Source of the DNA: the human T2T-CHM13v2.0 reference genome, Homo sapiens
Assembly: GCF_009914755.1 (NCBI RefSeq)
Contig: NC_060926.1
Length of the DNA stretch: 64,000 nt
Reading direction: 5' to 3' (one strand)
The position numbers and the translations under genes were made by a program. This document shows positions 5,559 to 8,500 of the stretch, in pieces (positions within the stretch are counted from its first letter, which is position 1; each line of letters begins with the position of its first letter). Below the pieces are notes generated by a model. It was not told the DNA's origin. It saw only the letters and a program-made list of their open reading frames with translations, and did no database searches.

Positions 5559-8500
5559 TCAATTCCCACCTATGAGTGAGAATATGCGGTGTTTGGTTTT
5601 TTGTTCTTGCGATACTTTACTGAGAATGATGTTTTCCAATTTCATCCATGTCCCTACAAAGGACATGAACTCATCATTTTTTATGGCTGCATAGTATTCC
5701 ATGGTGTATATGTGCCACATTTTCTTAATCCAGTCTATCATTGTTGGACATTTGGCTTGGTTCCAAGTCTTTGCTATTGTGAATAATGCCGCAATAAACA
5801 TACGTGTGCATGTGTCTTTATAGCAGCATGATTTATAGTCCTTTGGGTATATACCCAGTAATGGGATGGCTGGGTCAAATGGTATTTCTAGTTCTAGATC
5901 CCTGAGGAATCGCCACACCGACTTCCACAATGGTTGAACTAGTTTACAGTCCCACCAACAGTGTCAAAGTGTTCCTATTTCTCCACATCCTCTCCAGCAC
6001 CTGTGGTTTCCTGACTTTTTAATGATTGCCATTCTAACTGGTGTGAGATGGTATCTCATAGTGGTTTTGATTTGCATTTCTCTGATGGCCAGTGATGATG
6101 AGCATTTTTTCATGCGTTTTTTGGCTGCATAAATGTCTTCTTTTGAGAAGTGTCTGTTCATGTCCTTCACCCACTTTTTGATGGGGTTGTTTGTTTTTTT
6201 CTTGTAAATTTGTTGGAGTTCATTGTAGATTCTGGATATTAGCCCTTTGTCAGATGAGTAGGTTGCAAAAATTTTCTCCCATGTTGTAGGTTGCCTGTTT
6301 ACTCTGATGGTAGTTTCTTTTGCTGTGCAGAAGCTCTTTAGTTTAATTAGATCCCATTTGTCAATTTTGGCTTTTGTTGCCATTGCTTTTGGTGTTTTGG
6401 ACATGAAGTCTTTGCCCACGCCTATGTCCTGAATGGTAATGCCTAGGTTTTCTTCTAGGGTTTTTATGGTTTTAGGTCTAATGTTTAAATCTTTAATCCA
6501 TCTTGAATTGATTTTTGTATAAGGTGTAAGGAAGGGATCCAGTTTCAGCTTTCTACATATGGCTAGCCAGTTTTCCCAGCACCATTTATTAAATACGGAA
6601 TCCTTTCCCCATTGCTTGTTTTTCTCAGGTTTGTCAAAGATCAGATAGTTGTAGGTATGTGGCGTTATTTCTGAGGGCTCTGTTCTGTTCCATTGATCTA
6701 TATCTCTGTTTTGGTACCAGTACCATGCTGTTTTGGTTACTGTAGCCTTGTAGTATAGTTTGAAGTCAAGTAGTGTGATGCCTCCAGCTTTGTTCTTTTG
6801 GCTTAGGATTGCCTTGGCGATGCGGGCTCTTTTTTGGTTCCATATGAACTTTAAAGTAGTTTTTTCCAATTCTGTGAAGAAAGTCATTGGTAGCTTGATG
6901 GGGATGGCATTGAATCTGTAAATTACCTTGGGCAGTATGGCCATTTTCACGATATTGATTCTTCCTACCCATGAGCATGGAATGTTCTTCCATTTGTTTG
7001 TGTCCTCTTTTATTTCCTTGAGCAGTGGTTTGTAGTTCTCCTTGAAGAGGTCCTTCCCATCCCTTGTAAGTTGGATTCCTAGGTATTTTATTCTCTTTGA
7101 AGCAATTGTGAATGGGAGTTCACTCATGATTTGGCTCTCTGTTTGTCTGTTGGTGGTGTATAAGAATGCCTGTGATTTTTGTACATTGATTTTGTATCCT
7201 GAGACTTTGCTGAAGTTGCTTATCAGCTTAAGGAGATTTTGGGCTGAGACGATGGGGTTTTCTAGATAAACAATCATGTCGTCTGCAAACAGGGACAATT
7301 TGACTTCCTCTTTTCCTAATTGAATACCCTTTATTTCCTTCTCCTGCCTGATTGCCCTGGCCAGAACTTCCAACACTATGTTGAATAGGAGTGGTGAGAG
7401 AGGGCATCCCTGTCTTGTGCCAGTTTTCAAAGGGAATGCTTCCAGTTTTTGCCCATTCAGGATGATATTGGCTGTGGGTCTGTCATAGATAGCTCTTATT
7501 ATTTTGAAATACGTCCCATCAATGCCTAATTTATTGAGAGTTTTTAGCATGAAGGGTTGTTGAATTTTGTCAAAGGCTTTTTCTGCATCTATTGAGATAA
7601 TCATGTGGTTTTTGTCTGTGGCTCTGTTTATATGCTGGATTACATTTATTGATTTGCGTATATTGAACCAGCCTTGCATCCCAGGGATGAAGCCCACTTG
7701 ATCATGGTGGATAAGCTTTTTGATGTGCTGCTGGATTCGTTTTGCCAGTATTTTATTGAGGATTTTTGCATCAATGTTTATCAAGGATATTGGTCTAAAA
7801 TTCTCTTTTTTGGTTGTGTCTCTGCCTGGCTTTGGTATCAGAATGATGCTGGCCTCATAAAATGAGTTAGGGAGGATTCCCTCTTTTTCTATTGATTGGA
7901 ATAGTTTCAGAAGGAATGGTACCAGTTCCTCCTTGTACCTCTGGTAGAATTCGGCTGTGAATCCATCTGGTCCTGGACTCTTTTTGGTTGGTAAACTATT
8001 GATTATCGCCACAATTTCAGCTCCTGTTATTGGTCTATTCAGAGATTCAACTTCTTCCTGGTTTAGTCTTGGGAGATTGTATGTGTCGAGGAATGTATTC
8101 ATTTCTTCTAGATTTTCTAGTTTATTTGCGTAGAGGTGTTTGTAGTATTCTCTGATGGTAGTTTGTATTTCTGTGGGATCGGTGGTGATATCCCCTTTAT
8201 CATTTTTTATTGCATCTATTTGATTCATCTCTCTTTTTTTCTTTATTAGTCTTGCTAGCGGTCTATCAATTTTGTTGATCCTTTCAAAAAACCAGCTCCT
8301 GGATTCATTAATTTTTTGAAGGGTTTTTTGTGTCTCTATTTCCTTCAGTTCTGCTCTGATTTTAGTTATTGCTTGCCTTCTGCTAGCTTTTGAATGTGTT
8401 TGCTCTTGCTTTTCTAGTTCTTTTAATTGTGATGTTAGGGTGTCAATTTTGGATCTTTCCTGCTTTCTCTTGTAGGCATTTAGTGCTATAAATTTCCCTC

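What the first reader, a model, noticed from the sequence alone, without database searches (positions are those of the whole stretch)
5757..6004. Probable ectopic gene conversion between two L1s 52.6 kb apart, transferring a nonsense codon
Seen: 5757-6004 is identical to 58403-58650 (248 bp), whereas the flanking aligned ~770 bp differ at roughly 30 positions (~4%) and carry different subfamily diagnostics (GCG vs GAG). The identical tract contains two shared non-consensus bases: a synonymous TCA>TCG (5919/58565) and the ORF2 stop TTA>TGA, L1141* (5964-5966 / 58610-58612), inside the CCHC knuckle. A second short identical patch (5449-5525) shares CCCCCCAACCC. Knowledge: the CCHC region is needed for retrotransposition, so a common active parent is unlikely to have carried the stop. 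Inference: intrachromosomal non-allelic conversion, possibly the older fragment disabling the young full-length L1. The same pair of direct repeats could also mediate a 52.6-kb intronic deletion.
Basis: partly seen in the sequence, partly recalled or inferred. Interest (0 to 1): 0.7.

Follow-up and report, generated by a model that had tools for sequence, protein, structure and literature searches.

The report
L1 mutations spreading between neighbouring copies
Two dead L1 jumping-gene copies 53 kb apart share an identical patch holding a stop codon, and the same stop sits in 278 L1 copies of different ages bunched into megabase neighbourhoods, likely because nearby copies overwrite each other's DNA, probably with a bias toward A-to-C changes.

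Summary
The 248-bp identity and the ORF2 codon-1141 stop are real. Conversion between the two copies is likely, probably from the young full-length copy into the older fragment. It did not disable the young copy, which has two earlier stops. The larger result: the stop is not private to this pair. It is in 278 L1 copies (15,430 carry the common base), of several subfamilies, packed in megabase blocks; 6 of 7 young copies carry it in the densest 93 kb on chr2. Other A>C/T>G variants also cluster, each in its own places. At a site 20 bp away, T>G clusters while T>C at the same base does not. Neighbouring copies 5% apart, with unrelated flanks, share single variants within identical runs of only 20-90 bp. 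Locally private shared variants number 54 against about 19 in permutations (0 of 2000). Best reading: short-patch non-allelic gene conversion among neighbouring L1PA copies, with a likely repair bias toward C/G at some A/T sites. Conversion among nearby Alus (about 10 kb) is known; megabase-scale, biased spread in L1 was not found in 10 literature searches. One genome only; no ape or pangenome polarity.

The parts
5325..11390 (-). Full-length L1 (GCG 3'UTR type, L1PA2-like by recalled diagnostics) with a 16-bp target-site duplication at 5325-5340 and 11375-11390; in a PARD3B intron
   Evidence: gene from the annotation supplied with the finding
57984..59009 (-). 5'-truncated L1 fragment (GAG type, older flanking diagnostics), 95.9% identical to the 3' kilobase of the full-length copy, same orientation, 52,646 bp away; no target-site duplication found
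5757..6004 (-). Identical tract in the full-length copy (likely donor)
58403..58650 (-). Identical tract in the fragment (likely recipient; carries the young-type base matching 5786)
5964..5966 (-). ORF2 codon 1141 stop (also 58610-58612); A>C on the + strand at 5965; 278 carriers genome-wide in megabase clusters
5919..5919 (-). Shared synonymous, CpG-forming base (also 58565); in 3 of 44 other pattern-found copies
5449..5525 (-). Second identical patch, 77 bp (58096-58172); shares 5500A and the young-type 5506C
10137..10139 (-). Premature stop at ORF1 codon 110 of the full-length copy
9144..9146 (-). Premature stop at ORF2 codon 81 of the full-length copy

Best explanation
The stop and other single-base variants are shared by independently inserted L1 copies that lie near each other, likely because neighbouring copies convert one another in short patches, with repair probably favouring C/G over A/T at some sites so that these variants multiply locally. 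Shown: the sharing, its fall with distance, the site-specific clusters, the unrelated flanks and mixed subfamilies. Inferred: transient heteroduplex between copies 3-6% apart; patches mostly under about 100 bp; a few dozen ordinary founder mutations each amplified in place. The window pair is one longer event (248 bp, plus a 77-bp patch), likely from the full-length copy to the fragment, inside the chr2:205-214 Mb block. Most speculative step (about 0.3, from recalled biochemistry): A:G and T:C mispairs escape long-patch mismatch repair and are settled by base excision (MUTYH removes A opposite G), which would give single-base A>C conversion.
For: Stop allele: 278 copies against 15,430 with the common base and 257 with G or T; on chr1-3, 58 of 91 have another carrier within 250 kb against a mean of 5.8 under uniform placement, maximum 22 in 3000. 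In the 5786A subset 78 of 3114 carry it and none lies on chr7, 8, 9, 13, 15, 17 or 19-22. 6 of 7 copies at 93% identity or more carry it in chr2:209.254-209.347 Mb, 0 of 2 older ones. Four full-length neighbours there differ by 4.7-5.7% yet all share the stop and 6738G, three share 6210G; 0 of 36 flank pairs match; identical runs are 25-90 bp around 6738 and 22-29 bp in 8 of 10 pairs around 6210. 6210G (139 copies) and 6738G (221) cluster mostly elsewhere. Same-base control picked before looking, site 5945 with the same 6-base context as the stop: T>G 59, T>C 25, T>A 16 of the first 100; within 1 Mb 19 of 38 T>G against 2 of 21 T>C; none in five of the six stop blocks. Shared rare A>C per kb: 0.48 under 50 kb, 0.44 at 50-200 kb, 0.15 at 0.2-1 Mb, 0.007 at 1-10 Mb, 0.029 between chromosomes. 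Locally private shared variants 54 against 19.1 in divergence-stratified permutations, 0 of 2000. 4 of 7 local variants with three or more carriers are A>C-type against 102 of 854 singletons, p 0.005.
Against: One genome; no ape or pangenome data, so no event is polarised directly. The bias is not uniform: at site 6036 A>C is only 8 of the first 100; at 5860 A>C is 29 of 95 with 10 spread over chr2:161-193 Mb, but within 1 Mb it is not significant (2 of 14) while A>G there does cluster (4 of 13). Locally shared pairs are raised for all types, including C>A (6 against 1.7) and C>T (14 against 6.7), and T>A at 5945 forms small clusters. Identical runs across the stop are barely longer for close pairs (median 89.5, n 56) than distant ones (79, n 802), so co-conversion is weak. 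The uniform null ignores uneven L1 density; blocks and the 93-kb stretch were chosen after seeing the carriers; 6210 and 6738 were picked because they were shared. Only the first 100 matches of each search were listed. No enzyme was tested.
Confidence: 0.72

Rival explanations
1. Unbiased local conversion plus a high mutation rate of T[T>G]AC: ordinary neighbour conversion makes small clusters of any allele, and the large A>C clusters are jackpots from many or early founders.
For: All mutation types are shared locally above permutation. A>C is not amplified at 6036 and only weakly at 5860. The three most frequent variants share the TTAC context.
Against: At one base, T>G clusters and the similarly common T>C does not. 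The stop has clusters of 20, 10, 9 and 6 on chr1-3 while no control allele exceeds 4, except 5945G with 5. Three separate A>C-type variants are near fixation in one block while 5% of other differences remain.
Confidence: 0.15
2. Recurrent mutation that varies by region and context, with no transfer between copies.
For: Little co-conversion around the stop. Stop and 5945G overlap at chr3:83.5-90.5 Mb, and three variants overlap at chr2:209 Mb.
Against: The same 6-base context 20 bp away has 0 carriers in five of six stop blocks. 6738G is in 6 of 8 copies at chr2:209 Mb and 0 of 14 stop carriers on chr3 (one search state lists). Variants of all types are privately shared between neighbours. The younger subset carries the stop more often (2.5%) than the rest (1.6%), p 0.0008.
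Confidence: 0.06
3. Inheritance from a source lineage, local retrotransposition or segmental duplication.
For: Eight consecutive carriers at chr2:209.14-209.61 Mb have one orientation. Some clustered control alleles may be duplications (recalled, not tested).
Against: Carriers span GAG, GCG, ACG and ACA types and 1.2-5.4% divergence; neighbours differ by about 5%; flanks do not match; orientations are mixed on chr3.
Confidence: 0.04
4. Assembly or polishing artefact in this one assembly.
For: Only one assembly was examined.
Against: Clusters span 0.5 to several Mb, copies are 3-6% apart and so easy to tell apart, and the effect depends on the base change.
Confidence: 0.03

Closest known systems
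Non-allelic gene conversion among neighbouring Alus (Aleshin and Zhi 2010, as described in PMC6598467 and PMC8230782; the paper itself was not held)
   Same: Non-diagnostic variants shared between nearby independent insertions, falling with distance; mosaic subfamily diagnostics; young copies as usual donors (PMC8230782).
   Different: Reported range about 10 kb; here sharing is raised to 0.2-1 Mb and clusters run over several Mb. Here single variants reach near local fixation and the largest clusters are one transversion type. Element is L1PA.
Conversion among LTRs on human Y (Trombetta 2016, as described in PMC6598467) and interlocus conversion in Yq12 satellites (PMC12240836)
   Same: Variants copied from non-orthologous repeats; mosaic patterns.
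   Different: Those show multi-variant tracts or over 98% identical arrays; here dispersed autosomal copies 3-6% apart share mostly single bases.
GC-biased gene conversion (recalled)
   Same: The amplified changes are weak-to-strong.
   Different: Here ectopic; T>C at the same base is not amplified, and C>A pairs are shared too, so it is not a general GC bias.
Recombinant full-length L1s in the pangenome (PMC13192797)
   Same: 35 of 2,267 loci called recombinant.
   Different: Long-breakpoint recombinants, removed as noise; single-base regional sharing is not described in the passages seen.

Membership tests
Non-allelic gene conversion between TE copies | Independent insertions share non-diagnostic variants | tested here: met
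   54 locally private shared variants against 19.1 permuted, 0 of 2000; flanks unrelated, 0 of 36 pairs
Non-allelic gene conversion between TE copies | Sharing falls with distance and needs high identity | tested here: met
   distance bins; 6 of 7 copies at 93% or more against 0 of 2 older copies
Non-allelic gene conversion between TE copies | Mosaic subfamily diagnostics | tested here: met
   Fragment has old flanks with young-type 5506C and 5786A
Non-allelic gene conversion between TE copies | Non-reciprocal change after insertion, shown by orthologues or alleles | not testable with these tools
Alu-type neighbour conversion | Range of about 10 kb | tested here: not met
   Sharing raised at 50 kb to 1 Mb; clusters of 20 linked at 1 Mb or less
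Classical GC-biased gene conversion | All weak-to-strong changes favoured over strong-to-weak | tested here: inconclusive
   T>G but not T>C clusters at 5945; A>G clusters at 5860; C>A pairs raised
Classical GC-biased gene conversion | Tied to meiotic recombination rate | not testable with these tools
   No recombination map available
L1 subfamily diagnostic (inherited from a source gene) | Confined to one lineage and scattered over the genome | tested here: not met
   Four 3'UTR types, clustered by place

The most novel reading that the evidence does not exclude
L1PA copies exchange single bases with neighbours across megabase domains, and repair of A:G/T:C mispairs acts as a drive that sweeps A>C/T>G variants to near fixation region by region. 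One such sweep plants an ORF2 nonsense codon in young L1s, a host-neutral way of killing retrotransposons and a hidden source of recurrent mutation in L1 DNA.
Probability: 0.4. Interest if true: 0.87.

Novelty: new variant of a known kind. Interest (0 to 1): 0.72.

Why it matters
Dispersed L1 copies are usually treated as decaying independently; L1 dating, subfamily trees and context mutation rates taken from L1 remnants (for example PMC5237266) rest on that. Region-specific sweeps of single bases would break the assumption, create recurrent variants in L1 DNA, and give thousands of natural markers for the range, tract length and repair bias of ectopic conversion in the primate germline, testable now with T2T ape and HPRC assemblies. 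The pair itself has no evident functional effect.

Tried and rejected
Older fragment disabling the young copy: rejected (earlier stops; polarity points the other way). Stop private to the pair: rejected. Sub-lineage marker: rejected. Segmental duplication of the chr2:209 Mb copies: rejected. General A>C amplification at every site: not supported. L1 endonuclease site loss as the driver: the stop site reads like a T-run/A junction, but 6210 and 6738 do not; not pursued. Polarising variants in the 5' 4 kb of the four full-length neighbours: left open, no background copies over that part. A recalled link to an L1PA-associated germline mutational process in Seplyarskiy et al. was not found: 0 hits for L1PA, gene conversion or repeats in the texts held. 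Aleshin and Zhi 2010 and Harpak 2017 could not be read. The 52.6-kb deletion was not tested.

Full report
Observation. A full-length minus-strand L1 (5325-11390, 16-bp target-site duplication) and a 1.03-kb 3' fragment (57984-59009) are 95.9% identical. 5757-6004 equals 58403-58650. The flanks hold 33 differences in about 746 columns; a run of 248 arises in 419 of 200,000 shuffles. Real L1 pairs reach it more often: 1 of 26 distant pattern-found pairs at 3-4.5% divergence, 10 of 373 among all distant pairs, part of which were picked for likeness to this tract. The run alone is therefore suggestive only. The stop is at ORF2 codon 1141 in the zinc knuckle. Subfamily names and the reading of GCG, GAG, ACG and ACA as age markers are recalled; the age order used below comes from divergence in the fetched loci.

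The pair. Besides the stop, both copies share four bases that are not the majority among 72 other loci: 5500A (3 others), 5506C, 5786A and 5919C (3 of 44 pattern-found copies). The fragment has old-type flanks (5387A, 5526G, 5549T). Among copies with those flanks 5506C occurs in 1 of 33 others and 5786A in 3 of 26 pattern-found ones, while 21 of 24 young-flank copies have 5506C. Both patches thus look copied from the young element into the fragment; this is inference from one genome. The full-length copy has stops at ORF1 codon 110 and ORF2 codon 81, so the knuckle stop did not disable it.

The stop is regional. Exact 21-mers: common base 15,430; stop 278; G or T 257, of which 85 G and 15 T in the first 100. 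Contigs are read as chromosomes of the same number (C2 is chr2 by the annotation). On chr1-3, fully listed, 58 of 91 carriers have another within 250 kb (uniform mean 5.8, maximum 22 in 3000); 73 of 91 fall in six blocks chosen afterwards that cover 5.3% of the sequence. Linked at 1 Mb they form 31 clusters, the largest of 20, 10, 9 and 6; control alleles reach 2-5. In the 5786A subset, fully listed, 78 carry the stop against 3036 without, with blocks on chr4, 6, 11, 12, 18 and X and none on ten autosomes; chr7-9 alone would be empty with chance 4e-6 under uniform placement. In chr2:209.254-209.347 Mb, picked as the densest stretch, 6 of 7 copies at 93% identity or more carry it and 0 of 2 older ones. 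Among 64 carriers examined the triplets are GAG 52, GAA 3, GCG 2, ACG 2, ACA 2, AAG 1, unread 2, and divergence is 1.2-5.4%.

Neighbours share other single bases. Across 58 loci, rare non-CpG variants shared per kb were 1.10 under 50 kb, 0.75 at 50-200 kb, 0.47 at 0.2-1 Mb, 0.085 at 1-10 Mb, 0.28 beyond 10 Mb and 0.16 between chromosomes; A>C-type alone 0.48, 0.44, 0.15, 0.007, 0.02, 0.029 (pairs are not independent; duplicate loci L043 and L044 dropped). After adding 16 chr3 carriers, 47 variants were private to copies within 1 Mb against 9.3 in permutations; among the 46 pattern-found loci, permuting within divergence classes, 54 against 19.1, 0 of 2000. CpG sites, two homopolymer stretches, 5919 and 5965 were left out. 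All types are raised (A>C 9 against 2.5, A>G 17 against 5.6, C>T 14 against 6.7, C>A 6 against 1.7, C>G 6 against 1.5, A>T 2 against 1.2), but 4 of 7 variants with three or more carriers, and both with five or six, are A>C-type. Four full-length neighbours differ by 4.7-5.7% over 5 kb, all share the stop and 6738G, and three share 6210G; their 3' flanks do not match each other. Identical runs around those bases are mostly 20-90 bp, so patches are short or repair is base by base.

Each variant has its own map. 6210G (139 copies) clusters at chr2:209, chr4:5, chr4:57, chr5:145 and chr9:1.7 Mb; 6738G (221) at chr2:209, chr3:103, chr5:82 and chr8:9 Mb; both were picked because they were shared. 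Four sites were picked before looking. 5945, the same 6-base context as the stop and 20 bp away: 367 non-major copies, first 100 are 59 T>G, 25 T>C, 16 T>A; T>G clusters (19 of 38 within 1 Mb, uniform 3.8), T>C does not (2 of 21), and T>G is absent from five of six stop blocks but has 9 in chr3:83.5-90.5 Mb. 5860: A>C 29 of 95, 10 of them in chr2:161-193 Mb, but not significant at 1 Mb; A>G forms a tight group of 4. 6036: A>C only 8 of the first 100. 5980, a C: C>T scattered (2 of 31 within 250 kb), C>G 5 of 17, C>A 2 of 11. So weak local conversion touches all types, and strong amplification is seen for T>G in TTAC at two or three sites, not everywhere.

Mechanism. Shown: place-specific, allele-specific sharing among independent insertions. 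Inferred: ectopic conversion between neighbours, repeated, with a bias at some sites. Region-by-context mutation fails because the same context maps elsewhere; descent fails because carriers are of many ages with unrelated flanks. A base-excision route (A removed opposite G) would explain single-base patches and the transversion bias; this rests on recalled biochemistry and is untested. A cDNA donor, described for yeast elements (PMC6598467), is not excluded but would not obviously be local.

Literature. Ten searches found no paper describing megabase-scale or A>C-biased sharing among L1 copies; the library lacks most subscription papers and supplements were not read, so this is weak evidence of novelty. 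Seen: PMC6598467 (passages and section 4) and PMC8230782 (passages) on Alu conversion within about 10 kb; PMC13192797 (passages); PMC12240836 (passages); PMC5237266 (passages); PMC9217108 and its preprint (passages). Aleshin and Zhi 2010 is known only through the first two.

Verdict. The finding is real, its local story needs correcting, and it opens on a wider pattern: a new variant of non-allelic conversion between repeats. Confidence 0.72 for local conversion with some bias; 0.4 for a true A>C drive. Interest 0.72.

Noticed in passing
G000:C2:209,264,000-209,318,000 (L050-L053, L077-L083): Four full-length L1s of different ages in one orientation within 54 kb, with unrelated flanks; all carry the codon-1141 stop.
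   Followed up: partly
L022, L030, L072, L076 (chr4:23.6, chr4:95.3, chr3:90.25, chr3:90.41 Mb): Young ACG/ACA-type copies, about 1-2% from each other, carry the stop, so the spread is recent; whether they are full-length was not checked.
   Followed up: partly
chr3 and chr4:130 Mb: By eye, 5 of 8 A>G alleles at the stop site on chr3 lie within 0.9 Mb of a stop carrier, and A>T alleles sit in the chr4:130-135 Mb block; could be L1 density or error-prone repair.
   Followed up: no
L066 and L067 (chr3:74.63 Mb): Two oppositely oriented copies 5 kb apart share five private variants spread over 750 bp.
   Followed up: no
window 49840-51890: A degenerate tandem repeat array gives many self-matches at 65-78%.
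   Followed up: no
window 10509-11102: The RefSeq enhancer of the annotation lies inside the 5' part of the full-length L1.
   Followed up: no
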